Translations under genes and position numbers: made by a program
Virus record (IMG/VR): IMGVR_UViG_2585427779_000013
Coordinates: 1 to 52,997 of that record
Origin: a virus
Taxonomy: Duplodnaviria; Heunggongvirae; Uroviricota; Caudoviricetes
DNA length: 52,997 nucleotides
Strand: one strand, 5' to 3'
The notes under the pieces: generated by a model
Seen by the model: the letters and a program-made list of their open reading frames with translations, nothing else
Told to the model about the DNA's origin: nothing
Databases searched by the model: none
Part shown: positions 3,959-52,720 of the stretch, in pieces
Numbering within the stretch: position 1 is the first letter of the stretch
Layout of the letters: each line of letters starts with the position of its first letter

Positions 3959-3976
3959 TATGGCATCGCCTCCGGT

Positions 3977-5095
3977 TTACAAAATGGAATATTCAGGGTA
4001 ATAAACAAAGCGCCCGATTTCTCCATGATCCGGGCTGTAAATAATCACCGCTGCCAGCCGCCGCGACCGCCAACCACCATTCGTTGAATAAGCGTCTTTG
4101 CCAGCTAACGTGCCGTGATACTCAACAACGCCTAACGATGACTCAATCAGCCGTTGATGATGCCAGTGCCCGCAATGAGCGTAAACCGCCGCAGACTTGC
4201 CGAAATCCTCACGCCAGTCAGATACGCAAGCAGACAATAAATTTTCCGGCTTTTTGATAGTGTGCCCGTGGTGGTAAGCAAGGAATGTTTTGCCGTACTG
4301 TGTGTGGTGGACGATAGCAGGGGACACATCAACCGTCACGCGCGGTTCATCTTCGTAAAAAGCCGCCAGCGCCGCGCGTAGCCAAATCATGCCTGACTGA
4401 TCGTGATTGCCTGATAACACCTGGATTTCAACATCCTTATGATTTAGTAACATCTTCCCGACCGCACGCCGGACCGACCGGATCGCCACGTAAACCAGTT
4501 TTGCGTAGCGTGAATCGCAATCCAGGACGTGATTGCTTGATGGCGTCACTGGTAACAGGCCGTCAGTATGAAGCACATCACCGCCGAGAAGTAAAACAGC
4601 CTTTTCAGACATTGGCGCAGCGCCTACCGCGTAGTCGAAGAAATCATTTAGCACACGTTCAGCGATCCCGGTGTCGTAGCTTTCGCCGCATTCAGCTTTA
4701 TGAGCAAGCGCCCCGATATGTAGATCGAATACCGGATAAAGGGCCAGGCTTTTTTGGAAATCAATTTCCGGCACTGGCACGGCCTCCGCGCGTGGCATAT
4801 CTTCCGTGAAAGCATCGCAAGCCGCTTGCATTAGCCTTTCCATTTCATCGCGATCACGGGCTGTTTTAATCCAGCGCATAATCACATTGCCATCCTTATC
4901 GACGAGCAAAGACTCACCATTGATGCCAAAACCAGGCGCGCGACGCGTGGATATTAAACCGCGCTTTGCCAATCGTGCGCCCAGCCGTTCGACGTTGCGT
5001 TTTGCCATGCCGTACTTTTCAGCGATCTGTTTATATGTCAGGCCGCTGTTATGTTCAGCGATTAGTTGTTCATCGCTGATCTTTCTTTGTGACAT
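3977..5095 (-). CDS. HTH domain fused to calcineurin-like metallophosphoesterase (372 aa)
   Basis: N-terminal HTH (LTYKQIAEKYGMAKRNVERL); C-terminal motifs GDVLH, GNHD, HHGH, HCGHWHH typical of metallophosphoesterases; occupies the helicase-loader position between initiator and DnaB. Confidence 0.7.
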   Translation of the reverse strand: MSQRKISDEQLIAEHNSGLTYKQIAEKYGMAKRNVERLGARLAKRGLISTRRAPGFGINGESLLVDKDGNVIMRWIKTARDRDEMERLMQAACDAFTEDMPRAEAVPVPEIDFQKSLALYPVFDLHIGALAHKAECGESYDTGIAERVLNDFFDYAVGAAPMSEKAVLLLGGDVLHTDGLLPVTPSSNHVLDCDSRYAKLVYVAIRSVRRAVGKMLLNHKDVEIQVLSGNHDQSGMIWLRAALAAFYEDEPRVTVDVSPAIVHHTQYGKTFLAYHHGHTIKKPENLLSACVSDWREDFGKSAAVYAHCGHWHHQRLIESSLGVVEYHGTLAGKDAYSTNGGWRSRRLAAVIIYSPDHGEIGRFVYYPEYSIL

Positions 5096-5256
5096 AACGT
5101 TACTTCCTCATGTTTACAGAATGTATATTTATTTTCCGTAAAACGCGCTACAACGCAAAATTCCACCGCGTAACCCATTTGTAAGGGTGCAGTGTCTTTT
5201 TTGCGCCAGAGGCGCTATCAGGTGGCTAATTTTCGATTTACAGACTGGTAGGTAGG

Positions 5257-5358
5257 TTATGGATTAACGAGAAGGTACAAACCGCCGAACAAAGCGACGT
5301 TAACAGCGATTACCGCAGCGATGGCAAAAGCCAGGGCGAAAACGTGTTTACCGTCCAT
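5257..5358 (-). CDS. small hydrophobic peptide (33 aa, MDGKHVFALAFAIAAVIAVNVALFGGLYLLVNP)
   Basis: ATG ORF with AGAGGA RBS 7 nt upstream; single predicted TM helix; not in ORF track (<60 aa). Confidence 0.3.
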   Translation of the reverse strand: MDGKHVFALAFAIAAVIAVNVALFGGLYLLVNP

Positions 5359-5490
5359 TTTAAAATCCTCTCTGTAACGCTCTATAACGAGCTAATCGCA
5401 AAAGGTAAGCAAGTGTAGCCCCATATGCGATTTAGCTCGCTGGTGAGGTTGTTTTGTGGGTAATTTTGGATTTTTGCGGATCGTGGTTGG

Positions 5491-6543
5491 TCAAAGAACG
5501 CCAGCGCGTGTATCACGTAGCGTTTTTGGTTTAAGCAGGAAATCAAGTGTCGCAGTAAAGCCATTGCCGAAGTAAAAATCTGAAGCCGTGTTTTTGAACG
5601 TTTCGAAGTAGGCGACAAAGCCGTTAATGCTTTTGTCTTTCAGGTAGTCAGTGAACGCATAGATCTTGCGTTCAAGATCCCGATCCAGTTCGGCAGGTGG
5701 TAACAGGCCGTCAAACGTGCTGTTAAATGCTTCCACCACGTCGGCAGCGTTTACAGTAGCTGATAGCTTGCGCCATTGTTCAGCATCAGCCAAATACCCA
5801 TCAAACTTAGTTACCCGGCAAATGTTGATAGGCTTAGGTGTTCCGCCACGGCTACGCCATTGCGTTAAAGCCCACTCAATCACTAATGTGATCTCATCCT
5901 CCGTATACGCTTTACGTGTTTTTGTTTCTGTCAGTAGTTCTACGAATGGCTTAGCGTCACGACATTTGCATCCTGCCTTGTCGTTGTAGAAGGCAAGGCA
6001 ACGCAATGCCGCTTCGTTTACGCCATCCTGATTGACCATTTTTTGTTCATTTTCGACAATACACGAAGTGTATATATCTTTTTCTCTTTCTTTTTCTACT
6101 TCTAATTCTAATTCATGACCCTTTCCTGACCCGGTCATGACCCTATCATGACCTTTTTGTGTTGGATTGATTAACTTTTCTAATTTTAATTGCTCCTTCG
6201 CTGTGTTTATGGCGGCCCTGTAAGCGCTTTTAGAAGTCATTGATTGGTCCAGCCTTTTCAATAACTTTAAACAAGTTATGTGGCCTTGAGAACATTCAAA
6301 CAAACCAATTTCGATGAAGTATTTCATCATTTCTTCTATACGTTTTTCAGTAGATCCGACGTTTCGCGCAATTATTCTTGCGTCATGTCGTAGGTCAAAA
6401 GTTAGATTGTGCTGATCTACGTCATAAGTTATTAGTTCTAGGCAATACCAATAAAGCCCGTACCCTTCCAGGCCATAATCTAATAAAACGTTTTGAAGTT
6501 TTTCATCGCGGTTCGCATCGCTATCATGCTTAAACCACTTCAT
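5491..6543 (-). CDS. phage replication initiation protein (O-like replisome organizer)
   Basis: 350 aa; N-terminus MKWFKHDSDANRDEKL is the hallmark of phage replisome-organizer N-domains by recall; lies immediately upstream of helicase module. Confidence 0.75.
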   Translation of the reverse strand: MKWFKHDSDANRDEKLQNVLLDYGLEGYGLYWYCLELITYDVDQHNLTFDLRHDARIIARNVGSTEKRIEEMMKYFIEIGLFECSQGHITCLKLLKRLDQSMTSKSAYRAAINTAKEQLKLEKLINPTQKGHDRVMTGSGKGHELELEVEKEREKDIYTSCIVENEQKMVNQDGVNEAALRCLAFYNDKAGCKCRDAKPFVELLTETKTRKAYTEDEITLVIEWALTQWRSRGGTPKPINICRVTKFDGYLADAEQWRKLSATVNAADVVEAFNSTFDGLLPPAELDRDLERKIYAFTDYLKDKSINGFVAYFETFKNTASDFYFGNGFTATLDFLLKPKTLRDTRAGVL

Positions 6544-7786: not shown

Positions 7787-7878
7787 CCTGGAAAACACCA
7801 AAACGTAAACAGAAAACGTTATTTATTATTTAAATATCAATGGTATATAAAATATTATAAAAAAGTATACAAAATGGA

Positions 7879-8255: not shown

Positions 8256-8546
8256 ATGAGCGTTACAATTATATATGGTAAATGTGATAGCAAAATGAAT
8301 GCCAGGGAACGCAGAAGGATAAAAAGAGAAAACGAAAGAAAATCATCACCTGCAATCAATAAAACAGACAATGTGGATAAAGCTATTCGATTTGCAAACG
8401 AGGAAAGATGCAAACCAAATAGCATTAAAGAACGTCGCAAAGGATCAGTAAAATGGTATACGGAAAATGAAAGCGGCAGCTACTACCACGCAACGCAACC
8501 ACGCCATTTAGGGGAAAAACCCCTAGATAAAGTCCGCTATCATTAA
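8256..8546 (+). CDS. putative N-like antitermination protein (arginine-rich motif)
   Basis: 96 aa; segment MNARERRRIKRENERK resembles the ARM of lambda N (MDAQTRRRERRAEKQ) by recall; GGAG RBS before 8256; alternative start at ATG 8295 would place the ARM at the N-terminus. Confidence 0.45.
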   Translation: MSVTIIYGKCDSKMNARERRRIKRENERKSSPAINKTDNVDKAIRFANEERCKPNSIKERRKGSVKWYTENESGSYYHATQPRHLGEKPLDKVRYH

Positions 8547-8695
8547 TACAAAATGTAAACATCCGGAGATGACATTATGGTTATTCAGGCGCTTCAATTC
8601 AAACTGGCAGTAGCGGAAATGCTTCACGATGCCGAAATGTGGAGCGCCGCGAATAAAGCCTTATACATAGTGTTAACAGCGAAGGAGGCTAGTTA

Positions 8696-15897: not shown

Positions 15898-16056
15898 AGT
15901 TTACAAAATGGCGTCATTGCGTGATATGGATCACATAATGGCGCTTTTCGCCTTGTTCTGGTGTATCCATTTTGTATACTTCAAGCAAACAAAATGCTCT
16001 TTAAAAATCCGGCAGCGCTGAAATGCGTAGAAATCACCTGAAAAGGAGAGAGCATT

Positions 16057-19343: not shown

Positions 19344-19709
19344 ATGCAAATAATCATTGATTACCTTTGCCACGCTGCAAATACGCTTTTCGGTTTTTAT
19401 CAGCAACCATTCCTGAAAGAATGGGACGAAATGCTTAATGACATCCTCGACAAAGGATTAATAATGGAATTCGGGGAGCTAACAATCAAATTTAATTACG
19501 AAGGCAAAGAATATGACATATGGGTAGGCAACAGATGGTATTCATACGGGCATATTTATTCAATTGGCGGTAAATACATTAAACGAAGTCAGGAATTTAG
19601 ACCGCGCTTCCGCACAATGCGACGACTGCATGACCTGCATATGAAGATATTTGGAGATCAGGAAGCACGGGAATTATTCAAAATTTACGGGGATAAATCA
19701 TGGAGCTAA
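19344..19709 (+). CDS. hypothetical protein (121 aa)
   Basis: ORF in packed cluster. Confidence 0.45.
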   Translation: MQIIIDYLCHAANTLFGFYQQPFLKEWDEMLNDILDKGLIMEFGELTIKFNYEGKEYDIWVGNRWYSYGHIYSIGGKYIKRSQEFRPRFRTMRRLHDLHMKIFGDQEARELFKIYGDKSWS

Positions 19710-23602: not shown

Positions 23603-23803
23603 ATGTTCGACAAAATACGGGAGGCGTGCGCGTATGCAGTAGGGGCCGTAACGGCCTTTTTTGGTGCGATAACCATTAATGATGTTGCTGTCTTTGTGGG
23701 TATCTTATCAACCGTAGGCACATTTGCCGTTAATTATTACTTCAAATCACAGGAGAACAAGCGAGCGCAAGAGGAACACGACGCGCGAATGGGGAATAAG
23801 TAA
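23603..23803 (+). CDS. holin (pinholin-like, two TM helices)
   Basis: GGAGG RBS; 66 aa with two TM helices and charged C-terminus; immediately precedes SAR endolysin as in phage 21. Confidence 0.7.
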
Positions 23804-23804
23804 C

Positions 23805-24296
23805 ATGATTAGCCAATCGCTGAAAAATAAGATTATTGCGGCGGCGGCTGGTGGGGCGATCGCTATTGCGGGGATGATGATAAAAGATCTTGAAGGCGTT
23901 GAGTATAAGCCGTACAGAGATGTCATCGGTGTTTACACGATATGTTATGGACACGTCGGAAAAGACATCATGCTTGGGAAGACTTACACGCAATCAGAAT
24001 GCGATGCTTTGTTAAATAAAGATCTACACAAGACCGCAAAAGCGATTGACCCATATATCAAGGTCGAAATATCAGATTTTACCCGCGCTGCACTTTATTC
24101 CTTCGCCTATAACGTAGGCACTACCAACTTCAAAACATCAACCTTATTAAAGCTACTCAATGACGGCAAGAAATCAGAAGCGTGCGCACAGCTTAAACGC
24201 TGGATTTATGCTGGCGGTAAGCAGTGGCAAGGGTTAATTAACCGCCGTGATGTTGAATATGCCGTTTGCGAATGGGGTGAGACATGGACAAGGTGA
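23805..24296 (+). CDS. SAR endolysin (lysozyme, T4/P1 Lyz type)
   Basis: N-terminal Gly/Ala-rich SAR helix, then [34 protein letters not shown]… closely resembling phage 21 R / P1 Lyz by recall; track ORF starts upstream at 23724. Confidence 0.85.
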
Positions 24297-24754
24297 AGAC
24301 GTTAATTATCGCCGTTGTTGTTTGCATTATTGCCGGGCTGACCGCCGTAACGTGTTATTACCAGAGTGAGGCGGCAAGGTTACAGGAAGAAGTCACGGTG
24401 ACGCAAGGTGCACTAAAGACAGCAAGTAACACTATTCAGCAGATGAAGGATCGGAACGCCGAACTGTCAAAACTTGATAAGAGGTATCACGATGAGATTA
24501 AAGCTATCAGATCTGACATTGCCGATCTGCGTGCTGGCATTGATAGCGGTGCTATCCGGTTGCACGTCAACGCCGAGCCAGTGCGATTGCTCGACAATAC
24601 CGGAACCGCCAGCCGCATTGATGGAGCCACCTGTAGACTCACTCCAGACGCTGAATCGGCTTATCTATCCCTCAGAGAACAACTAAAAGAGAAAGATGCG
24701 AAGATCGCCGGACTTCAGAGCTATATCAAAACGCAGTGCTTACGCAAAAAATAA
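24284..24754 (+). CDS. Rz-like i-spanin
   Basis: 156 aa; N-terminal TM helix, coiled coil, C-terminal pattern similar to lambda Rz. Confidence 0.8.
24492..24686 (+). CDS. Rz1-like o-spanin lipoprotein embedded in Rz (+1 frame)
   Basis: [24 protein letters not shown] lipobox then Pro-rich region, like lambda Rz1. Confidence 0.75.
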   Translation: MRLKLSDLTLPICVLALIAVLSGCTSTPSQCDCSTIPEPPAALMEPPVDSLQTLNRLIYPSENN

Positions 24755-24986: not shown

Positions 24987-25559
24987 ATGTTAACACTAGA
25001 CGAACTAGACAGGATTTTATTCTGTGATGTTGAAAATGGTTTGCTTTACTGGAAATCACGCCCGCGTAGTGACTTTAGCAATGATTTTACTTGCAGGATG
25101 TTTAATTTTAAGGCCGGGAAGATAGCTGGCGGTATTAATGGCGACGGATACGTCGTTATCCATCATAACGGTAAACCTATATTTGCTCATGATGCCGTAT
25201 GGCTTTTTGCTGGTAATGAATTGATAGATGGGCTTGTTATAGATCACATAAACCATATAAGGAGCGATAACAGGCTAAAAAATCTTAGAATGGTTAGTGA
25301 GTTAACTAATTCAAGAAATCAAAAACTTCATAGCAATAACATTACGGGATATAGCGGGGTAAGAAAAACCAAATCAGGAAAATGGTCCGCGCACATACAT
25401 GTAAACGGTAAGGAAAGGCAAATAGGGACATTTTTAACGATTGATGAGGCTGTTAAAGCCAGAAAGAACGCTGAAGCAATTAACGGTTATCATGATAATC
25501 ACGGGCGAGACATCTATGTTGATCTGCCATATATAGACCCGTGGAATAGAATAAATTAA
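24987..25559 (+). CDS. HNH homing endonuclease (HNH plus AP2-like DNA-binding domain)
   Basis: 190 aa; DGLVIDHINHIRSDNRLKNLRMVSELTNSRN and GYSGVRK…W.A motifs; GGTGGAGA RBS. Confidence 0.75.
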   Translation: MLTLDELDRILFCDVENGLLYWKSRPRSDFSNDFTCRMFNFKAGKIAGGINGDGYVVIHHNGKPIFAHDAVWLFAGNELIDGLVIDHINHIRSDNRLKNLRMVSELTNSRNQKLHSNNITGYSGVRKTKSGKWSAHIHVNGKERQIGTFLTIDEAVKARKNAEAINGYHDNHGRDIYVDLPYIDPWNRIN

Positions 25560-38744: not shown

Positions 38745-39004
38745 AACCCACCACGCTTAGTTTTTATTTTTAAGTGATTTTAACATTTCTTCAATGAAAT
38801 CCGCATAGCGTTCATGTTCGTTGGGACGGTAGTTTACGTTTTTCATTTTCTTGTCCTCTTTTGCTTCCTCCGGTTTATCCGGTCCTTTTAAATCCCTTTA
38901 CTCTATCCATTTCCTTTAGCCTCTTTATACAAAATGTATTCGTTGAAGTGAAGCCATTTTGTATAAAATAGAGACATAGATCACATCTTGTATGAGGTTA
39001 AATC

Positions 39005-41354: not shown

Positions 41355-41382
41355 AAGGCCGCTTATAGCGGCCTTTATTTTA
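41355..41382. terminator. bidirectional terminator after tape measure gene
   Basis: AGGCCGC-TTATA-GCGGCCT followed by TTATTTT. Confidence 0.7.
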
Positions 41383-41667
41383 CATGGTGAGAATATAAAT
41401 CAAACAGCACAGGAATACAGGTGCGGCGAAGTCGCAAACGCTAGCCATATTCCATGCTTTAGGTAATAATCCGCCATACCACGGCATTCTTTCCCGTTTT
41501 CCACCGCAAAATTCCGCTATGTAACGATATTCAGCCTGCGTGTGTTCCCGTGCAAAAAAGAATGTACATCCAATCAGGCCGCCAGTGAGATAATCACCAG
41601 TAAGCAGGCCGATAACAACCTGCATAGCCGCCGCAGCCAGTGCGTGACCAATGACGGTTAAATCCAT
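41380..41667 (-). CDS. moron membrane protein (95 aa)
   Basis: Three hydrophobic segments; reverse strand inside tail cluster. Confidence 0.5.
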   Translation of the reverse strand: MDLTVIGHALAAAAMQVVIGLLTGDYLTGGLIGCTFFFAREHTQAEYRYIAEFCGGKRERMPWYGGLLPKAWNMASVCDFAAPVFLCCLIYILTM

Positions 41668-41669
41668 TG

Positions 41670-41855
41670 TTAATCCTCCTGATCGTTCTCAAATGTGCCA
41701 TCTATAAATTTTTGAAGCCCGGCGATAAGTTGCGTCGCCTGCGATTTGTCAATTACGAGGGTGTCAGTCCCCATGAGTTCGGTTATCCATAGCCGACCAT
41801 CCTCATCAAGATCTAACCTAACTCCGTAACATAACTCTGTTTCGTCAATAATCAT
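41670..41855 (-). CDS. moron acidic small protein (61 aa)
   Basis: ORF 2 nt upstream of membrane protein gene (coupled pair). Confidence 0.45.
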   Translation of the reverse strand: MIIDETELCYGVRLDLDEDGRLWITELMGTDTLVIDKSQATQLIAGLQKFIDGTFENDQED

Positions 41856-41964
41856 TTTTCCTCCTATAATCTTCCGTTACGTGCTACGTAACCACTGCCG
41901 AACATCACCAACCAAATATTCCAGATCTCCCGCCAGGTGAATTTATCGTCCTCCATGTCCCACC

Positions 41965-42219
41965 TCACTTATGCACCCCTTTGACTCCACAGTGCCTGTT
42001 ATATTCCAGATGATCGATAATTAACCAGACTTTTAGGTCTTCGCTAAACAGCCTCCAGTCAGGGGTGATGTCGAATTTAAAGCCATAACCATCACGTAAC
42101 TTTTTGGGGCGCGCCTCTTTCTTCAAAAATGCTTTAAGCAGTTCCCTCCCTTTCTTGATAATCCTGTCTTGTGCGTTTTTCTGTACTTTCAGGTTTTTAT
42201 CAATCGCTACCAGTTTCAT
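41965..42219 (-). CDS. moron basic small protein (84 aa)
   Basis: Reverse-strand ORF. Confidence 0.45.
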   Translation of the reverse strand: MKLVAIDKNLKVQKNAQDRIIKKGRELLKAFLKKEARPKKLRDGYGFKFDITPDWRLFSEDLKVWLIIDHLEYNRHCGVKGVHK

Positions 42220-42236
42220 AACTCACCCCATCATCC

Positions 42237-42392
42237 TTAGTTGAGTGCCTTCAGGAAGAAATCACGGTATTCATCTTCTTTTGCATTCATCATGAATTGA
42301 CCGTATTTGAATGCGTCGTCGAAGCCCTTAACGATTGCTATTTCCACTTGTTCGAATGCGTTGTTCAGCATTACCACTACATAGCGTTTCAT
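42237..42392 (-). CDS. moron small protein (51 aa; possible N-terminal extension to 42467)
   Basis: ATG at 42392 has GGAGG RBS; an in-frame upstream ATG at 42467 lies inside the TTTACAAAATGG motif. Confidence 0.45.
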   Translation of the reverse strand: MKRYVVVMLNNAFEQVEIAIVKGFDDAFKYGQFMMNAKEDEYRDFFLKALN

Positions 42393-42560
42393 TTTTGGCC
42401 TCCTTCGTTGGTACTGCTTTTCTTCTTGCTTTCTATATACATCTTGTTGCGTACTATGTGAAGCCATTTTGTAAACTAGCTATAATCATTGTGATTAAGA
42501 TCTCATTTTTCGCGTAGAGGCGCGTAAAGATATATACAAAATGTAACTTATGGGGGTTTT

Positions 42561-43978: not shown

Positions 43979-44107
43979 CTCACACCTCCGCGCCATTTTG
44001 TTAACTGTGCTTCCGTTTGAGTAAAATATACATATTGTATAAACCGCGATCAATCCATTTTGGTATGATTTAGCGTGACGCAGATCACAAAATCAGAAGG
44101 TGAGAAA

Positions 44108-46033: not shown

Positions 46034-49000
46034 ATGAGTAGCGGCGGCGGTAAAGCAAAAACACCGACTTTAATTAATGATAATCTATACCATAAACAAT
46101 TTTATCGTGTACTGGATATTATTTCGGAAGGTCCTATTTATGGACCTGTAAATACAAAAGCACCATTAAATAGCGTGATGCTTAATGACACGCCTGTAAC
46201 TGACGCGAACGGCAATACAAGTGTCCCTGGTGTTAGCGTGGCGTGGCGTAACGGCACGTTAGATCAATCACCTATTAACGGTTTTAACGCCATTGAATCA
46301 ACCGTTATTGTTAACGCTCAGGTGAAACACGATACCCCAATAATCAGGACTGTATCAGATCCTAACGTTACGCGCGTTCGCCTGAATATCGGCGTCGATT
46401 CACTTGTACAATCTGACGAGCAAAGCAATCAACATAACACATCGGTTATGATGATGATTGATGTCAAGCCTTCATCTTCTTCTACGTGGACGCTTGTTAA
46501 AGACGTAACTATAGGCCCGGGTAAGATCAGCGGAGAATATCTTGAAGCGCATATTATCAATGCACCAGATGAAAAGCCGTTTGATATTCGCGTTCGCCGT
46601 GTAACGGCCGATAGCACAAGCGATCTATTGCAGAATGATACGAGATGGAGTAGTTACAGCGAAATAATCGACGATAATTTGTCATATCCCCACACAGCTG
46701 TAGCTGGCGCGGTTATTGATCATGATCAGTACACTGACACGCCTACCCGCACTTATCACCTGCGCGGGCTGATTGTTGACGTTCCTGATAACTATAACCC
46801 GGAAACGCGCACTTATTCCGGTTTGTGGCTTGGCGGCTTCAAGAAGGCGTACACCAATAACCCCGCGTGGATCTTCCGTTACCTGGTTAAAAACGAGCGT
46901 TTCGGTCTTGCCCGCCATGCTGGCTATATTGACGTTGACGACGGCGCATTATATACGCTCTCCCGATACTGCGACCAGTTGGTTGATGATGGTTACGGTG
47001 GCCTTGAGCCTCGCATGACGCTTAATGCTTACATTACAGAGCAAATGAGCGCCCGCGATTTACTGGACAATATCGCCGGGATGTTCCGAGGCATCGCGTT
47101 ATGGGACGGACAACGCCTTACCGTGATGATTGATGCGCCACAAGACCCGATCGCCACCATCACAAACGCAAACGTCGTTGATGGTGCGTTCACTCGTTCA
47201 AGTATCGCCCGAGCAGAATGCTACAACGCCGTGATTGTATCATGGACTGACCCGGAAAACGGCTGGGAGCAATCAAAAGAGTATGTGGCAGATGATGAGC
47301 TAATCGCCCGTGATGGTTATAACGAAACTACGTTGGAGGCGTTCGGGTGCACTTCACGCGGGCAAGCGCACCGCGCGGGTAAATGGCTGATAGAAACAGC
47401 AAAACGCGAGCCGTCAAAATTCACGTTTAAAATGGCCCGTGATGCGATTCACTTTACGCCAGGGGATATAATCGAGATCCTCGACAATAACCGCGCAGGC
47501 GCGCGTTTAGGCGGTCGTATCGTGGCGAACAATGGGAAAGTGATAACGGTCGATAAGGTCGATTCAGAATACATTGCAGCAGGCGACACCATCAGTTTAC
47601 TTGATGGCGATGGCAAATTTAAAAAACATCAGATCACTGGTGTTAACGGGAACAAAATCACACTGGCAGCAGCCCCGGCATGGATTCGGAACGGTACTGT
47701 TTTTGCTGTATCAACCGAATCTGCAAAACCCGTTTTATGTCGAATCATCAGCGTAGCAGAAACTGAAAACAACAGCGTGTACACCATCGAAGCCGCGCAA
47801 CATGACCCGAAAAAACAAGCAGTAGTCGATGAAGGAGCGATATTTGAAATCAACAACGACACGCTTAATCACTTCCGCGTGCCGAACATTGAAAATCTGA
47901 AGGTTGTAAACATTGGATCTGAAACGGTTCAATGCCGCGCAACATGGGAGACACAGACAACAACACATCGCATGACATTTGAGATCCGCATATATAACGC
48001 CGATGGTGCGGTGGTTAGAAGCTACGAAACAACGAAATACAGTTATGATTTTTATGGCATCGACTCTGGCGCGTATTCGTTAGGCGTTCGCGGAAGAAAT
48101 GACACTGGCATGAAGGGTGCAGAAAGCATAGTAGATCTTGTTATCGGTGCGCCAGCCTCGCCAATAGGCGTTAACTGGGTTCCAGGTGTATTTCAGGCTA
48201 CAGTGTACCCGATAAGCAAGACGACGCTAACAACTGATACAGCGTATGAATTCTACTATGCAGGTGAAAACCAGATTACGGATCCTGCAAAAATAACCAC
48301 GTCTGCGCAGTTTACCGGGCGCGGGTATCAGTGGACGTTTGGCGGCATGAATACAGGCCACACTTATTACGTTTATGTGCGCACGCGTAACGCTTTTGGC
48401 GTGTCTGACTTTGTGGAAGCATCAGGTAAGCCGACAGAAAATTTTGATGAAATTAGCGATTACGTCACCAAAGACGTGATGAATTCAGAACAATTTAAGG
48501 GAATGGTAAGTGATATTAAGGATCTTGGTGATCGCGCTGATATTATAGAAAGCGCAACCGCCGACCTTAAAACAGCTACAGACGGCCTTAAAGCTGATAC
48601 AGATACACTTAAAAAAGACACCGAAGACCTCTATAAAAAAGTCGAAGAAAACGCAGATGGAATAGGCAAACATGAGGTAAGAATAGACTCATTAGAGGTA
48701 TCAAACGAAAACGTTAACAATGAACTGGCACAGACAAAAGCAAGTCTACAAAACGCTTCTCTAGCCCTGATCAACAACTCACTTGCTCAAACTAACACGC
48801 GCGTTACTCTTACCGCTCAATATAAGAAAGGGCGCAACGAAACGAAAGCGCAGATTGACCGCATAGACAACGTTATCGCAGAGGAGAAAAAAGCGACAGC
48901 GGAATCACTGGAAACCATTACAGCAGAAATGAACGCAATGGACTCCAGCATCAAAGGGGAAATCGCCCGCGTTGACAAAGCAATCGCAACCGAAACGCAG

Positions 49001-50482
49001 GCAAGAAGCGACGCAATAACAGAGGTTAAAGCTGATTTAACCACGCTTGAAAATAGCACAAACGCCAGTGTTAGACGCCTTGATCAAGCTATCGCTGACG
49101 AATCAAGCGCGCGCGCCCAGGCAATATCAGGCATCAGTGCGGAGCTTGGTCTTGTTAAAAGTGATGTTGATAAAAACAGCGACAAGATAGAGCAGGCGAA
49201 AGCAAGTCTGCAAAACGCCTCGATTGCACTTATCAACAACTCAATAGCGCAAAGCAAGATGGGCACTGTTATTGAGGCGAAATACAGGAAAGGACAGACA
49301 AAAACAAAAGCGGAAATAGCAAGGATCGACACAGCAATAGCAGACGAAACACAGGCCCGCGCGGAGGCTATAGCATCACTTGAAGCCAATATTAATGAAA
49401 ACATTTCAGCAAAAATAACAGATATATCAACGGCGCTAGCTACTCACGAGGCATCAAGTGCTGAAAAATTTGTCAAAATATCGGCATCTTTCGACGATGT
49501 AAACTCAAGCATCACGGAATGGTCGCAGGCCATGTCAACGGCAGATGAGGCGTTATCGACAAAAATTGATCAACTGAAAGTGACCGTTAACGGAAACACA
49601 ACAGCGATCGAGACAACATCGAAAGCGTTAACCGATTTTAAAGGTAACGTTGATGCGTCATATTCAATCAAGATTGCCACTGATAACAACGGTATGAAAT
49701 ACGCAACAGGAATGTCACTTGGCCTAACTGGCAGCGGTACTGATGTTCAATCGCAGTGCATTTTCCTTGTTGACCGATTCGTGTTAATGACTGCCGCAAA
49801 CGGCACATATCAGACACCTTTCTATGTCACTAACGGCGCAATGTATGTGCGCGAAGCGTTTATTAAAGACGGTTCAATCGACAATGCAAAAATAGGCAAT
49901 GTCATAACGTCATACAATTGGAACGGTAGCGATCAAGGTTGGGCAATAGTTAAAGATGGCTGGGCTACATTTAACAACGTTACAGTACGCGGCACGGTAT
50001 ACGCTAATTCTGGTGTGTTTAACGGTGCTGTTTACGCGACTGACGGTAAATTCAGAGGCACTGTAGAAGCTACATCCTTTGTTGGTGACGTTGCGAGTAT
50101 GTCAGTAATTCCAGAGGCAACATTCCCTGCGCAATCAGGGTCAGGTAGCAGGAGTGTAACCAAAAATTATTGGGATTCATCATCATCCGCTTTATCGAAA
50201 ACGGTTTATGTAATGATACCTTATAACCTTGCTTACTATATATATAACCAGTCTGGACGCATTAACGTAACCATAAACATTAACGGAAATTCAAAGACTA
50301 TAGACATAGAAAGGGCGGCATCAACGCCCCACAAGTCAGACGTTGCCGTTCATTGTGTTTCAGGTATTACATCTCAGCATGTTTCCGTAACTGTTACAGA
50401 AAACTACACAAATACATCATCAGCGGCAATAAGGAGACCAGGCCTAGTCCTTGTCACAAGAAGCTCAGGATCGTGGTCATAA
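46034..50482 (+). CDS. host specificity / central tail fibre protein J
   Basis: 1482 aa; lambda J-like N-terminal region, fibronectin-III-like segment, internally duplicated coiled-coil region near C-terminus. Confidence 0.85.
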   Translation: MSSGGGKAKTPTLINDNLYHKQFYRVLDIISEGPIYGPVNTKAPLNSVMLNDTPVTDANGNTSVPGVSVAWRNGTLDQSPINGFNAIESTVIVNAQVKHDTPIIRTVSDPNVTRVRLNIGVDSLVQSDEQSNQHNTSVMMMIDVKPSSSSTWTLVKDVTIGPGKISGEYLEAHIINAPDEKPFDIRVRRVTADSTSDLLQNDTRWSSYSEIIDDNLSYPHTAVAGAVIDHDQYTDTPTRTYHLRGLIVDVPDNYNPETRTYSGLWLGGFKKAYTNNPAWIFRYLVKNERFGLARHAGYIDVDDGALYTLSRYCDQLVDDGYGGLEPRMTLNAYITEQMSARDLLDNIAGMFRGIALWDGQRLTVMIDAPQDPIATITNANVVDGAFTRSSIARAECYNAVIVSWTDPENGWEQSKEYVADDELIARDGYNETTLEAFGCTSRGQAHRAGKWLIETAKREPSKFTFKMARDAIHFTPGDIIEILDNNRAGARLGGRIVANNGKVITVDKVDSEYIAAGDTISLLDGDGKFKKHQITGVNGNKITLAAAPAWIRNGTVFAVSTESAKPVLCRIISVAETENNSVYTIEAAQHDPKKQAVVDEGAIFEINNDTLNHFRVPNIENLKVVNIGSETVQCRATWETQTTTHRMTFEIRIYNADGAVVRSYETTKYSYDFYGIDSGAYSLGVRGRNDTGMKGAESIVDLVIGAPASPIGVNWVPGVFQATVYPISKTTLTTDTAYEFYYAGENQITDPAKITTSAQFTGRGYQWTFGGMNTGHTYYVYVRTRNAFGVSDFVEASGKPTENFDEISDYVTKDVMNSEQFKGMVSDIKDLGDRADIIESATADLKTATDGLKADTDTLKKDTEDLYKKVEENADGIGKHEVRIDSLEVSNENVNNELAQTKASLQNASLALINNSLAQTNTRVTLTAQYKKGRNETKAQIDRIDNVIAEEKKATAESLETITAEMNAMDSSIKGEIARVDKAIATETQARSDAITEVKADLTTLENSTNASVRRLDQAIADESSARAQAISGISAELGLVKSDVDKNSDKIEQAKASLQNASIALINNSIAQSKMGTVIEAKYRKGQTKTKAEIARIDTAIADETQARAEAIASLEANINENISAKITDISTALATHEASSAEKFVKISASFDDVNSSITEWSQAMSTADEALSTKIDQLKVTVNGNTTAIETTSKALTDFKGNVDASYSIKIATDNNGMKYATGMSLGLTGSGTDVQSQCIFLVDRFVLMTAANGTYQTPFYVTNGAMYVREAFIKDGSIDNAKIGNVITSYNWNGSDQGWAIVKDGWATFNNVTVRGTVYANSGVFNGAVYATDGKFRGTVEATSFVGDVASMSVIPEATFPAQSGSGSRSVTKNYWDSSSSALSKTVYVMIPYNLAYYIYNQSGRINVTININGNSKTIDIERAASTPHKSDVAVHCVSGITSQHVSVTVTENYTNTSSAAIRRPGLVLVTRSSGSWS

Positions 50483-50515
50483 AAATAACCCCGCTTTGCG
50501 CGGGGTTTTCTTTTA
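50483..50515. terminator. bidirectional terminator after J
   Basis: AAAAATAA-CCCCGC-TTTGC-GCGGGG-TTTTCTTTT. Confidence 0.75.
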
Positions 50516-50761
50516 GTAGTTAGCTACACAATTCGACGGGCTACCGATGCGGCGCATATTGTGATCTAGTTCATGACACCATTGACCAGTATATGGAAGT
50601 TTTTCAGTGTCATAGACAAGATGACCATTAGCATCATAGACAATTTCTTGAGGAATTACTCCGCTATTTGGCAGGTTGTGCAATGCAGCATCTTTGTCAA
50701 CAGCACAACCAGTAAGAGCAACAGCCGCAGCGAATAATACCACTTTGAGCATGTTTTTCAT
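50513..50761 (-). CDS. small lipoprotein, candidate receptor-blocking superinfection exclusion protein (Cor/Llp-like)
   Basis: 82 aa; signal peptide with lipobox MKNMLKVVLFAAAVALTGC; reverse strand between J and tail fibre gene. Confidence 0.55.
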   Translation of the reverse strand: MKNMLKVVLFAAAVALTGCAVDKDAALHNLPNSGVIPQEIVYDANGHLVYDTEKLPYTGQWCHELDHNMRRIGSPSNCVANY

Positions 50762-50938
50762 TTTTGAATCCCCATTCTCGTTAGCTCGCCAGGTTCATCC
50801 GGTGGCTTAAATATCCGACAAAACAACATTTCGTATATTGATATAAATCAATAAATACATTTTGTATAAGCCAGAAATGTAACACAGATCACAAAATGGT
50901 AAAATTACCAGGTTAATTAACATAATGGAGTCATTGCG

Positions 50939-52720
50939 ATGATTTACACAACAGGCACGATAGCCGTTAGCGGAAAAACAGTTACCGGAACGGGGACTGA
51001 ATTCAATGCCGCATTATCTCTGATCAGGGTCGGTTGCACCCTTATTGCCATTAGCAATCCGGTGCAGATTTTCTCAATCACAGAGGTAAAAAGCGCAACA
51101 AGTTTATCAGTAACACCTGCGGCAAGTCCGAATATTCCTGCTGGAACTAAATTTAGTATCCTGCTTTCAGATTCGATCTCTGTGGATGGTCTTGCTCAGG
51201 ATGTTGCAGAAACACTGCGTTACTATCAGGGCAAGGAATCAGAAATAGCTGACGCCGTCGAATTTTTCAGCGACAACAAAGATGTGATTTCAGCCTCAAA
51301 ATTAGCGTCACAATCAGCTACCACTGCAACCAACGCTGCAACAACAGCGACAAGCGCCGCCGATTCAGCTAAGACATACAGAGACGAGGCCCACGAATAC
51401 GCTAATCAGACAGCGCAGCCTTACGCGTATGTTTTGCAGCCGCTGCCGGACGTATGGATACCGTTTAACGACTCTCTCGACATGATTACCGGGTTTTCCC
51501 CTTCCTATAAAAAGATTGTTATTGGTGAAGAAGAAACAACAGTACCAGGTGACAAGATCGTTAAATTTAAACGCGCGTCAAAAGCAACTTATATAAACAA
51601 ATCCGGTGTGTTTAAGGAAGCAGCCATTGACGAACCACGTTTTGAACGAGAAGGGCTGCTGATTGAAGGGACCAGAACTAACCACATTATAAACGGTAAC
51701 ACTCCATCAAGCTGGGGGAGATCGCCGTCAGTTACGACAACTGCAAACACGGATGCCTTCGGCTTCCTGTACGGTAAGTTCGTGATCGGGGACGATGATG
51801 TGGGAAAAACTACGGCGTTAAACATGGCTTCCGTAATTGCGGCTAACAGTCTTGATACGTCTGGTGACGAGAAATATGTAACGGCATCATGCCGATTCCG
51901 ATCCGACAAGGATGTACGTCTGCGCGTGCGTTTTGCAGAGGGTGCGGATCAGGATAGCATGACTTTCTCCGGCGACGCATACATTAAACTTAGCGACTTG
52001 TCAGTGTCTAAAACTGGTGGCGCTGCGGAACGTATCACGGTAGAAGTTGAGAGGGACGAGGTCACCGGATGGAATCGCGCGGTGGTGATGCTGCAATCCA
52101 CCACGGCATTGGTTAACGCACAGTTTCAGATCTCGCCAGTGAGTAGTTATGCTGCCGGGGATTATATCGAACTAACCACACCGCAAGTTGAGCTAGGTAT
52201 CGGGGCGTCCTCGTATATCATATCCAACACATCACCGACAACCAGGGCAAGTGATATAGCCACGGCTCCGATAAAGAACAACATTTATAATGCACCATTT
52301 ACTATTCTTTGTGAGGTGCATAAAAATTGGAACAAAACGCCGAGTTCAGCGCCGCGTGTTTTTGACACAGGAGGTCATCAGACTGGCGCGGCTATAATTC
52401 TTGCTTTTGGGTCGTCGGCAGAATACGACGGATTTCCTTATTGCGATATTGGCGGGGCAAACAGGCGCGTTAACGAAAACGCATCACTGCAAAAAATGAT
52501 TATCGGCATGAGGGTTAAAAGCACCTATGATACATGTTGTGTCAGTAACGGACGCATATCAAGCGAAACAAAAACAACATGGAGATATATATATAACGCA
52601 GCAATATTCCGTTTCGGCGGTCAAACAACATCAGGGGAGCGACATCTTTTTGGACATATTAGAAATTTCAGGGTATGGCACAAAGCATTAACCGATGCGC
52701 AATTGAGCGAGATTGTTTAA
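50939..52720 (+). CDS. tail fibre protein
   Basis: 593 aa; Ser/Thr/Ala-rich N-terminal region typical of fibre proteins; location after J. Confidence 0.6.
   Translation: MIYTTGTIAVSGKTVTGTGTEFNAALSLIRVGCTLIAISNPVQIFSITEVKSATSLSVTPAASPNIPAGTKFSILLSDSISVDGLAQDVAETLRYYQGKESEIADAVEFFSDNKDVISASKLASQSATTATNAATTATSAADSAKTYRDEAHEYANQTAQPYAYVLQPLPDVWIPFNDSLDMITGFSPSYKKIVIGEEETTVPGDKIVKFKRASKATYINKSGVFKEAAIDEPRFEREGLLIEGTRTNHIINGNTPSSWGRSPSVTTTANTDAFGFLYGKFVIGDDDVGKTTALNMASVIAANSLDTSGDEKYVTASCRFRSDKDVRLRVRFAEGADQDSMTFSGDAYIKLSDLSVSKTGGAAERITVEVERDEVTGWNRAVVMLQSTTALVNAQFQISPVSSYAAGDYIELTTPQVELGIGASSYIISNTSPTTRASDIATAPIKNNIYNAPFTILCEVHKNWNKTPSSAPRVFDTGGHQTGAAIILAFGSSAEYDGFPYCDIGGANRRVNENASLQKMIIGMRVKSTYDTCCVSNGRISSETKTTWRYIYNAAIFRFGGQTTSGERHLFGHIRNFRVWHKALTDAQLSEIV

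What the first reader, a model, noticed from the sequence alone, without database searches (positions are those of the whole stretch)
50513..50761. Small lipoprotein on the opposite strand next to the receptor-binding genes (candidate Cor/Llp-like exclusion factor)
An 82-aa lipoprotein gene (lipobox LTGC) lies between J and the tail fibre gene on the opposite strand, with its own promoter region containing the recurrent motif and a bidirectional terminator. In T5 (llp) and phi80/N15/T1-type phages (cor), a small lipoprotein encoded beside the receptor-binding protein gene blocks the phage receptor to prevent superinfection; this gene fits that placement and size, but I cannot confirm sequence similarity.
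Basis: inference. Interest (0 to 1): 0.6.

Follow-up and report, generated by a model that had tools for sequence, protein, structure and literature searches.

The report
LamB-phage exclusion lipoprotein gene
This small outer-membrane lipoprotein gene beside the phage's receptor-binding tail tip is a near-identical copy of a protein shown in 2025 to make E. coli resistant to phages that enter through the LamB porin, so it is real but already described, although how it disables LamB is still unknown.

Summary
The 82-aa ORF at 50513-50761 (-) is a real gene under purifying selection (dN/dS 0.07-0.14). It has a signal peptide, the lipobox LTGC, a Shine-Dalgarno site and a bidirectional terminator shared with J. 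The window is a temperate coliphage of the mEpimmI group. The protein is 91.5% identical to mEp010 gp116 (Lpp010, "type-C" lipoprotein). Negrete-Mendez et al. 2025 showed that plasmid-expressed Lpp010 excludes the LamB-dependent phages mEp010, mEp044, mEp554 and lambda.

Homologues lie in the same place (after J, opposite strand) in virulent Seuratvirus, Nonagvirus and Dhillonvirus phages. Among the BASEL phages Bas14-25, they occur only in the four that use LamB and in none of the eight that use LptD or FhuA. The last ~195 codons of J, the terminator and the lipoprotein gene form one exchangeable module. Relatives carry Cor or an Rtp44/Rtp45-like pair in that slot.

Once the signal peptide is removed, the family shows no detectable sequence relation to Cor, T5 Llp or Rtp45. 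The likely target is LamB, not FhuA. This is already known biology. The open point is how a ~7 kDa lipoprotein blocks a porin that has no plug.

The parts
50513..50761 (-). Gene for the 82-aa prolipoprotein, an orthologue of the mEpimmI 'type-C' exclusion lipoprotein Lpp010. The mature form has 64 residues, about 7.2 kDa, pI 5.3.
   Evidence: ORF; 91.5% identity to mEp010 gp116; dN/dS 0.07-0.14; PHROG 12984 E=2.4e-27; mature-protein properties.
50705..50761 (-). Signal peptide and lipobox (residues 1-19, LTGC). Cys19 would be the lipidated first residue. Ala at +2 predicts outer-membrane sorting.
   Evidence: Sequence. The cysteine aligned with Cys19 is invariant across 25 homologues, and the +2 residue is A/G/S/T, never Asp. 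The sorting rule is established knowledge (the +2 Asp Lol-avoidance rule).
50516..50665 (-). Conserved core of the mature protein (residues 33-82: SGV.P ... DTEKLP.TGQWC.E ... RRIGSPSNC...Y), with the conserved Cys62/Cys78 pair (probable disulfide) and an invariant C-terminal Tyr.
   Evidence: Alignment A1: C78 and Y82 invariant, C62 at least 90% conserved. The disulfide is an inference.
50769..50773 (-). Shine-Dalgarno sequence GGGGA, 7 nt upstream of the ATG (GAGGA in relatives).
50487..50507 (.). Bidirectional intrinsic terminator shared by J and the lipoprotein gene.
   Evidence: Scan hits on both strands. ARNold terminator annotated at the same place in mEp010, mEp013, mEp044 and mEp554.
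49897..50482 (+). Variable C-terminal tip of J (about residues 1288-1482), the presumed receptor-binding part. It travels with the lipoprotein gene.
   Evidence: Homology to mEp021 and to the E. coli M15 prophage stops at 49895/49896 and resumes at 50851/50837. The tip aligns to its last residue only with J proteins of phages that carry the lipoprotein.
49897..50836 (.). Exchangeable host-range module: J tip, terminator, lipoprotein gene and about 75 bp upstream of it.
   Evidence: Break points from blastn against loci carrying other cassettes.
50762..50938 (.). Divergent intergenic region. It holds motif copies at 50856-50869 (+) and 50886-50899 (-), a conserved extended -10 TGGTAAAAT (50897-50905, +) before the fibre gene, and a weak extended -10 candidate TGTTACATT (50884-50876, -) toward the lipoprotein gene.
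   Evidence: No transcription data, so the promoters are unverified.
46034..50482 (+). J-type tail tip / central fibre gene (1482 aa).
   Evidence: Pfam FNIII-A_GpJ, Phage-tail_3, Ig_J, Ig_J_second, Phage_Tail_Tip.
50939..52720 (+). Tail fibre gene (593 aa), transcribed divergently from the lipoprotein gene.
   Evidence: PHROG 1419 tail protein E=1.8e-201.

Best explanation
The gene encodes a superinfection-exclusion (lytic-conversion) lipoprotein specific for phages that use the maltoporin LamB. The precursor is exported, lipidated at Cys19 and sorted to the outer membrane, because it has Ala rather than Asp at +2. There the ~7 kDa mature protein, probably stabilised by a Cys62-Cys78 disulfide, acts on LamB so that J-type tail tips can no longer use it productively. 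This protects the lysogen or infected cell from related phages and from lambda, and it spares progeny from adsorbing to debris. By analogy with Llp-FhuA and Rtp45-LptDE, I propose that it binds LamB at the periplasmic rim or lumen and alters or occupies the part of the porin the phage needs. Shown: the gene, its lipoprotein features, its orthology to Lpp010, its linkage to the J tip and its association with LamB-using phages. Shown by others for the orthologue: the exclusion phenotype. Inferred: that this phage uses LamB, outer-membrane localisation, direct LamB binding, the side of the membrane, and the disulfide.
For: (1) Orthology: 91.5% identity to mEp010 gp116 and a mature sequence 100% identical to that of an E. 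coli N1286 prophage.
(2) Experiment on the orthologue: plasmid-borne Lpp010 excludes LamB-dependent mEp010, mEp044, mEp554 and lambda. The OmpA-dependent phages mEp021 and mEp515 are instead excluded by the unrelated type-A lipoprotein (PMC11893012).
(3) Lambda's J tip is not alignable with this J tip (27% identity over q16-214 only; 30% in a forced global alignment, at or near the 16-30% seen between unrelated tips), yet lambda is excluded. The common element is therefore the receptor, not the phage tip.
(4) Association with receptor: a tblastn search at E<=1 finds the family in 44 phage records. In the BASEL phages Bas14-25 it is present in all 4 LamB users (Bas21-24) and in none of the 8 LptD or FhuA users.
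(5) Both J-tip subtypes nearest to the window's tip belong to phages with experimentally assigned LamB dependence: 48-49% identity to the tips of the LamB-verified Bas21, Bas23 and Bas24, and 37-42% to the tips of the LamB-verified mEp010, mEp013 and Bas22.
(6) Module structure: the J tip and the lipoprotein gene are exchanged together. The same slot holds Cor in an E. coli M15 prophage and an Rtp44/Rtp45-like pair in mEp021.
(7) Between the window and mEp010 the J tip has diverged to 37% identity while the lipoprotein stays at 92%, as expected if its partner is a conserved host protein.
(8) Synteny is conserved in CAjan, EP23, KurtStettler, a Salmonella contig and a lambdoid E. coli prophage.
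(9) Precedent: small lipoproteins encoded next to the receptor-binding protein block FhuA (Llp) and LptD (Rtp45) from the periplasmic side (PMC9586334, PMC12685063).
Against: No experiment exists on this allele. It differs from Lpp010 at five mature positions (residues 24, 39, 40, 44, 45), and its J tip belongs to a third sub-branch whose receptor has not been tested. Nobody has shown binding to LamB or a loss of adsorption; the published assay is plaque formation only. LamB has no plug domain and no known allostery, so the Llp mechanism cannot simply be transferred (noted in PMC9586334). mEp013 is LamB-dependent and carries a mature lipoprotein identical to Lpp010, yet it is not excluded, so LamB is not simply made unavailable. 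No convincing promoter was found, so the timing of expression is unknown. The AlphaFold2 model is unreliable (pLDDT 57.6).
Confidence: 0.78

Rival explanations
1. The lipoprotein excludes phages after adsorption. It would block tail-tip or tape-measure insertion, or DNA passage through the periplasm or inner membrane (as with Ltp of Streptococcus phage TP-J34 or T4 Imm/Sp), rather than acting on LamB itself.
For: The published assay scores plaques, not adsorption, and its authors leave open 'interfere with DNA ejection or block the receptor'. mEp013 escapes exclusion although it needs LamB. Lambda and these phages share J N-terminal domains.
Against: The family tracks the receptor, not the tail. 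Seuratviruses Bas21-24 (LamB) have it, while Bas25 of the same genus (LptD) lacks it. The gene is exchanged together with only the last ~195 residues of J. OmpA-dependent mEp021 and mEp515, from the same phage group, are reported as excluded only by the type-A lipoprotein.
Confidence: 0.1
2. The lipoprotein is flipped to the cell surface and masks the LamB loops from outside, instead of acting from the periplasm.
For: Van den Berg et al. raised this possibility for surface-exposed lipoproteins blocking receptors that are not TonB-dependent transporters. Allele-specific escape by mEp013 fits partial masking of the loops.
Against: The only other such case solved so far (Rtp45-LptDE) turned out to be periplasmic. 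There is no surface-export signature, and the +2 Ala only predicts Lol-dependent delivery to the inner leaflet.
Confidence: 0.08
3. It is a moron unrelated to exclusion, such as a Bor- or Lom-like virulence or serum-resistance factor, or the outer-membrane spanin of the lysis system.
For: In lambda the position after J is occupied by lom. Small outer-membrane lipoproteins in phages include Bor and Rz1.
Against: There is no Pfam or NCBIfam match to Bor, Lom or spanins. The lysis cassette, with endolysin and Rz, is at 23724-24754. The orthologue has a demonstrated exclusion phenotype. The family also occurs in strictly virulent phages.
Confidence: 0.03
4. It is not a functional gene, only a chance ORF or a decaying remnant.
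For: Pfam and NCBIfam have no family for it, and several records annotate it only as hypothetical.
Against: dN/dS is 0.07-0.14. The cysteine aligned with the lipobox Cys19 and the core motifs are conserved in 25 homologues. It has a Shine-Dalgarno site and a terminator. Synteny is conserved across distant phage genera.
Confidence: 0.01

Closest known systems
Lpp010 (mEp010 gp116), the 'type-C' exclusion lipoprotein of mEpimmI phages (Negrete-Mendez et al. 2025, PMC11893012)
   Same: Orthologue: 91.5% identity over 82 aa, same lipobox, same position between J and the fibre gene on the opposite strand, same shared terminator, same phage group.
   Different: There are five substitutions in the mature part, at residues 24 and 39-45 (QEIVYDANG versus QDVVYDGSG). 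The J tip next to it is only 37% identical to that of mEp010. This allele is untested.
Lipoproteins downstream of gpJ in LamB-targeting Seuratvirus, Nonagvirus and Dhillonvirus phages (e.g. bas21-24_0021, CAjan gp19, EP23, 9g). Van den Berg et al. 2022 flagged them as likely exclusion lipoproteins.
   Same: Same family: 55-65% identity overall and about 70-77% over the C-terminal 52 residues. Same convergent position after J.
   Different: They are carried by virulent phages, so their role there must be lytic conversion. The N-terminal third of the mature protein differs. As far as I found, none has been tested.
T5 Llp
   Same: Same kind of device: a ~7 kDa lipoprotein with an internal Cys pair, encoded next to and divergent from a receptor-recognition gene, which inactivates the phage's own receptor.
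   Different: No detectable sequence relation. Its target is FhuA, a plugged TonB-dependent transporter with known allostery. Its disulfide joins the N-terminal region to the C-terminus, whereas here the two Cys residues are 16 residues apart near the C-terminus.
Cor (phi80, N15, T1, HK022)
   Same: An exclusion lipoprotein of temperate siphoviruses encoded near J. In an E. coli M15 prophage of this same phage group, Cor occupies exactly this slot.
   Different: No homology (PHROG 1119 matches the signal peptide only, E=0.16; hhalign probability 0.2%). Cor acts on FhuA.
Rtp45 (phage Rtp) and the mEp021 type-A lipoprotein Lpp021
   Same: Exclusion lipoproteins in the same slot and on the opposite strand. 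Rtp45 has been shown structurally to bind its receptor from the periplasmic side, and that receptor (LptD) is not a TonB-dependent transporter. It is the best mechanistic precedent.
   Different: A different family (hhalign probability 2% and 0.2%). They are co-transcribed with a separate receptor-binding protein (Rtp44 or gp80), whereas here specificity lies in the J tip itself. Their targets are LptD and, presumably, OmpA.

Membership tests
mEpimmI type-C Lpp / PHROG 12984 lipoprotein family | Sequence membership: full-length similarity, including PNSGV.P, DTEKLP.TGQWC and RRIGSPSNC...Y. | tested here: met
   PHROG 12984 E=2.4e-27 over residues 7-82; 91.5% identity to Lpp010; alignment A1.
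mEpimmI type-C Lpp / PHROG 12984 lipoprotein family | Lipoprotein signal peptide with lipobox [LVI][ASTVI][GAS]C. | tested here: met
   L-T-G-C at residues 16-19. The cysteine aligned with Cys19 is invariant in the family, though P0026 lacks a canonical lipobox.
mEpimmI type-C Lpp / PHROG 12984 lipoprotein family | Located immediately after J, convergent with it, and before the lateral fibre gene. | tested here: met
mEpimmI type-C Lpp / PHROG 12984 lipoprotein family | Excludes LamB-dependent phages when expressed. | not testable with these tools
   Shown for Lpp010 only (PMC11893012).
Receptor-blocking exclusion lipoproteins encoded next to the receptor-binding determinant (functional class: Llp, Cor, Rtp45) | The gene co-varies with the phage's receptor specificity. 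| tested here: met
   Present in 4 of 4 LamB users and 0 of 8 LptD or FhuA users among BASEL Bas14-25, and in the LamB-dependent but not the OmpA-dependent mEp phages. It is exchanged together with the J tip.
Receptor-blocking exclusion lipoproteins encoded next to the receptor-binding determinant (functional class: Llp, Cor, Rtp45) | Direct binding to the receptor and loss of adsorption. | not testable with these tools
   I found no published data for any member of this family.
Cor family | Sequence similarity of the mature domain to Cor. | tested here: not met
   PHROG 1119 E=0.16, signal peptide only. No hit to any Cor-named NCBIfam family at E<=1. hhalign of mature domains gives probability 0.2%, the same as shuffled controls.
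Cor family | Inactivates FhuA. | not tested
   The family is absent from the FhuA-using BASEL phages Bas15-17, which argues against this.
T5 Llp family | Sequence similarity of the mature domain to Llp. | tested here: not met
   hhalign probability 0.1%. Llp did not appear in the profile search of PDB chain sequences at E<=10.
Rtp45 / type-A Lpp family | Sequence similarity of the mature domain; co-transcribed with an Rtp44-like receptor-binding protein. | tested here: not met
   hhalign probability 2% and 0.2%. No Rtp44-like gene lies between J and the lipoprotein gene. In contrast, mEp021 gp81 and gp80 are 49% and 64% identical to Rtp45 and Rtp44.
Rz1-type outer-membrane spanin | Embedded in or adjacent to an Rz gene within the lysis cassette. 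| tested here: not met
   Endolysin and Rz are at 23724-24754, about 26 kb away.

The most novel reading that the evidence does not exclude
The family may be a third, independently evolved class of receptor-inactivating lipoproteins. It would work on LamB, a trimeric porin with no plug and no known allostery, by a structural mechanism different from Llp-FhuA. One possibility is that the disulfide-stapled C-terminal core enters the maltoporin lumen from the periplasm and repositions the constriction or surface loops. That would predict allele-specific escape, as seen for mEp013, and possibly impaired maltodextrin uptake. The variable patch at residues 38-46 and the rapidly diverging J tips would then mark an arms race fought through a host protein.
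Probability: 0.4. Interest if true: 0.55.

Novelty: already known. Interest (0 to 1): 0.27.

Why it matters
For annotation, the gene can be named: an exclusion lipoprotein of the Lpp010 (type-C) family. Together with the J tip it predicts that this phage uses LamB. More broadly, the locus is a clean example of the host-range module in which the receptor-binding tip and its cognate receptor blocker are swapped as one unit. That module is shared between temperate mEpimmI phages, lambdoid prophages and virulent Seuratvirus, Nonagvirus and Dhillonvirus phages. The unresolved part is how a 64-residue lipoprotein disables LamB. This question was raised in 2022 and has since been answered only for LptD. 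This family is the obvious reagent for answering it, but it was already identified for that purpose.

Tried and rejected
- Pfam and NCBIfam scans of the protein gave nothing above noise.
- A profile search of all PDB chain sequences at E<=10 gave two chance hits and no Llp or Rtp45.
- AlphaFold2 with the 25-sequence alignment gave pLDDT 57.6 and pTM 0.29. That is too poor for a fold search, so none was run. The LptDE paper also reports that predictions for such lipoproteins are unreliable.
- An exhaustive HMM search of 1.84 billion representatives found only three family clusters, plus one weak repeat match in a 4467-aa protein. There are therefore no distant relatives that could bridge to Cor or Llp.
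- Full-length hhalign gave 78-87% 'probability' against Llp and Rtp45. This came from the signal peptide and vanished once it was removed, so I rejected it.
- An Rfam scan of 50300-51100 gave only sub-threshold chance hits.
- The sigma-70 consensus scan found no promoter in the intergenic region. The lenient scan's candidate toward the lipoprotein gene is weak and not conserved.
- I tried to read the recurrent motif as a -10 box, a -35 box, an IHF site or a leaderless start. None fits all copies.
- I tried to identify the contig that carries the variant without a lipobox (P0026). It has no match in the phage collection and no tRNAs.
- The spanin and Bor/Lom readings were rejected.

Full report
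**What is there.**
The minus-strand ORF 50513-50761 encodes 82 aa: MKNMLKVVLFAAAVALTGC|AVDKDAALHNLPNSGVIPQEIVYDANGHLVYDTEKLPYTGQWCHELDHNMRRIGSPSNCVANY.
- It has a basic n-region, a hydrophobic core and the lipobox L-T-G-C. Ala at +2 predicts outer-membrane sorting by the established Lol rule.
- A GGGGA Shine-Dalgarno sequence lies 7 nt before the ATG.
- The gene converges on J (46034-50482; five GpJ/tail-tip Pfam domains). It diverges from a tail-fibre gene (50939-52720).
- Between the two stop codons sits an 8-bp-stem G+C-rich hairpin at 50487-50507, flanked by A and T runs. It scores as an intrinsic terminator on both strands.
- Against six orthologues, dN/dS is 0.07-0.14, so the gene is real and constrained.

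**What the window is.**
The window belongs to the mEpimmI group of temperate, Nus-dependent, non-lambdoid coliphages. It is related to mEp010, mEp013, mEp021, mEp044, mEp515, mEp554, MagusPhagus and about 35 E. coli prophages. No record in the searched collections matches closely enough to be the same phage: the best match to the first 25 kb is 93%, and phage records match the J-fibre region at 81-87%.

**Identity of the protein.**
- Pfam and NCBIfam have no family for it. PHROG 12984 'lipoprotein' matches at E=2.4e-27.
- It is 95% identical to the MagusPhagus lipoprotein. It is 91.5% identical to mEp010 gp116 and 89-91.5% identical to the mEp013, mEp044 and mEp554 proteins.
- Its mature part is identical to that of an E. 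coli N1286 prophage.
- Negrete-Mendez et al. (Front Microbiol 2025, PMC11893012) call this the type-C lipoprotein. They cloned mEp010 gp116 (Lpp010) and showed that it excludes mEp010, mEp044, mEp554 and lambda, but not mEp013. All of these phages need LamB. The unrelated type-A lipoprotein of mEp021 excludes the OmpA-dependent mEp021 and mEp515.

**Wider family and link to the receptor.**
- A tblastn search with the mature protein at E<=1 finds 44 phage records. Besides the mEp group, they are Seuratvirus, Nonagvirus (9g) and Dhillonvirus (EP23, PNS1) phages, plus Cronobacter, Salmonella and Enterobacter phages.
- In the family-bearing phage and prophage loci whose gene context was examined, the gene lies just after the J-like gene on the opposite strand. 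These include CAjan, EP23, KurtStettler, a Salmonella contig and a lambdoid E. coli prophage. The exception is the non-lipobox variant P0026, described under side observations.
- In the BASEL collection, receptors of Bas14-25 were determined experimentally. Bas21-24 use LamB and all four carry the gene. Bas14, 18, 19, 20 and 25 (LptD) and Bas15-17 (FhuA) do not.
- Van den Berg et al. 2022 had already remarked that LamB-targeting phages such as Bas23 'likely do have SE lipoproteins' downstream of gpJ. They also noted that the mechanism on LamB is an open question.
- An exhaustive profile search of 1.84 billion representative proteins finds only three clusters. The family is narrow and has no distant relatives.

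**The module.**
- Homology of the window to mEp021 and to an E. coli M15 prophage stops at 49895/49896, inside J. It resumes at 50851/50837.
- The interval holds the last ~195 codons of J, the terminator, the lipoprotein gene and about 75 bp upstream. In mEp021 the same interval holds homologues of Rtp44 and Rtp45 (64% and 49% identity). In M15 it holds two ORFs and a Cor gene. This is one exchangeable host-range cassette.
- The window's J tip aligns to its last residue only with J proteins of phages that carry this lipoprotein. It forms a sub-branch with MagusPhagus and N1286 (67-80% identity). It is 48-49% identical to the tips of the LamB-verified Bas21, Bas23 and Bas24, and 49% to CAjan, whose tip is 97-99% identical to theirs. 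It is 37-42% identical to the tips of the LamB-verified mEp010, mEp013 and Bas22. Identity to lambda, mEp021 and M15 is 24-30%, at or near the 16-30% seen between unrelated tips.
- Between the window and mEp010 the J tip is no longer alignable at the DNA level, yet the adjacent lipoprotein gene remains 92% identical. That pattern fits a lipoprotein whose partner is a conserved host protein, not the phage tip.
- The exclusion of lambda, whose tip is unrelated, points the same way.

**Relation to Cor, Llp and Rtp45.**
- Full-length comparisons give spurious signal from the signal peptide.
- With the signal peptide removed, profile-sequence comparisons to T5 Llp, Rtp45, the mEp021 type-A lipoprotein and Cor give probabilities of 0.1-2%. 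These are indistinguishable from shuffled controls.
- A profile search of all PDB chain sequences, which should include Llp and Rtp45, gives nothing relevant.
- The protein works like these proteins but is not a member of their families.
- What they share is size, lipidation, an internal Cys pair (here the conserved C62 and C78) and genomic placement.

**Mechanism.**
The best-supported reading is a LamB-directed exclusion or lytic-conversion lipoprotein anchored in the outer membrane. By analogy with Llp-FhuA and especially Rtp45-LptDE, it most likely acts from the periplasmic side. Rtp45 is a periplasmic lipoprotein whose disulfide-bearing hairpin reaches up the lumen of a receptor that is not a TonB-dependent transporter.

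mEp013 needs LamB and has a mature lipoprotein identical to Lpp010, yet escapes exclusion. This argues for a modification of LamB that some J tips tolerate, not for removal of LamB.

Three rivals remain open because nobody has measured adsorption or binding:
- a block after adsorption;
- a surface-exposed mask;
- to a much smaller degree, an unrelated moron function.

The AlphaFold2 model was too poor to help (pLDDT 57.6).

**Regulation.**
- The recurrent motif is real: TACATTTTGTATAA gives 9 sites against 0.88 expected, and the core CATTTTGT gives 20 against 4.3.
- One copy lies at 50856-50869, with a degenerate inverted copy at 50886-50899. Both lie in the conserved backbone outside the cassette.
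- The clearest promoter-like element there is a conserved extended -10 (TGGTA[A/G]AAT, 50897-50905) facing the fibre gene. The leftward candidate (TGTTACATT) is weak and not conserved.
- All three cassette types are oriented so that they would be read leftward from this backbone region. A leftward promoter there is therefore plausible but unproven.

**Verdict.**
Membership in the Cor and Llp families is rejected. The gene is an orthologue of a published, experimentally tested exclusion lipoprotein, so it is already known. The residual interest lies in the unsolved mechanism on LamB.

Noticed in passing
window 7865-7878(-), 8544-8557(-), 15966-15979(+), 19674-19687(-), 38925-38938(-), 38953-38966(+), 42532-42545(-), 44029-44042(+), 50856-50869(+), 50886-50899(-): The motif TACATTTTGTATAA (core CATTTTGT) is strongly over-represented: 9 sites against 0.88 expected, and 20 core copies against 4.3. 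Most copies lie in intergenic regions ahead of genes, including a divergent pair at 38925/38953 before the tape-measure-sized gene. It fits no sigma-70, IHF or leaderless-start logic that I tried, so it may be a regulator-binding site.
   Followed up: partly
window 49897-50836; L002 (mEp021) 3397-4859; L005 (E. coli M15 prophage) 4556-6000: The same slot in sister phages carries unrelated receptor modules. mEp021 has gp80 and gp81, which are 64% and 49% identical to Rtp44 and Rtp45 of phage Rtp, although mEp021 uses OmpA and Rtp uses LptD. The M15 prophage has two small ORFs plus a Cor lipoprotein, followed by an IS903B insertion.
   Followed up: partly
L020 3293-3511 and L021 2212-2430 (E. 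coli contigs carrying P0026): This is a 72-aa family member without a lipobox. It reads ...AIALCCTAFA|NTNEPNSG, which looks like a signal peptidase I site. It sits among small genes in an AT-rich contig with no J gene nearby and has no match in the phage collection. It may be a soluble periplasmic version in an unknown phage type.
   Followed up: partly
L006 6037-6534 (-) (E. coli O68:H12 97.3 lambdoid prophage): This is a mosaic lipoprotein with a CAjan-like N-terminal half and a window-like C-terminal half. It shares 93% DNA identity with the window over 138 nt spanning the J stop codon, the terminator and the 3' end of the gene. PGAP annotated it as an over-extended 165-aa hypothetical protein. 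It shows that the family also occurs in lambdoid prophages.
   Followed up: partly
window 50877-50892 (+): TGTAACACAGATCACA resembles a CRP site (TGTGA-N6-TCACA) in the divergent intergenic region. This could matter, because LamB expression itself depends on CRP. The left half-site is degenerate in the mEp010 group (TGCAA).
   Followed up: no
window 50897-50905 (+): An extended -10 element, TGGTAAAAT (TGGTAGAAT in relatives), is conserved in all seven aligned phages. It lies about 34 nt upstream of the fibre gene's ATG and is a likely dedicated promoter for the fibre gene.
   Followed up: partly
window 41380-42467 (-): A block of four small minus-strand ORFs (95, 61, 84 and 76 aa) sits inside the plus-strand tail gene cluster. 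It is preceded by a motif copy at 42532-42545(-), and another core copy overlaps the first ORF's start codon at 42465-42467. These are possibly morons.
   Followed up: no
window about 15990-16010 (+): A boxA-like sequence, TGCTCTTTAAAAA, lies next to two motif copies. It may be one of the nut sites described for this Nus-dependent phage group.
   Followed up: no
window 50513-50527 (-), residues 78-82: This family, T5 Llp (CEGVF) and Cor (CPELN) all have a Cys exactly five residues from the C-terminus. This family and Llp also end in an aromatic residue. There is no other detectable similarity, so this may be coincidence or convergence.
   Followed up: no
window 24987-25559 (+): An HNH endonuclease gene (PHROG 99, E=5.9e-56) lies just after the lysis cassette (endolysin 23724-24296, Rz 24284-24754). 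This is presumably the terminase-associated HNH.
   Followed up: no
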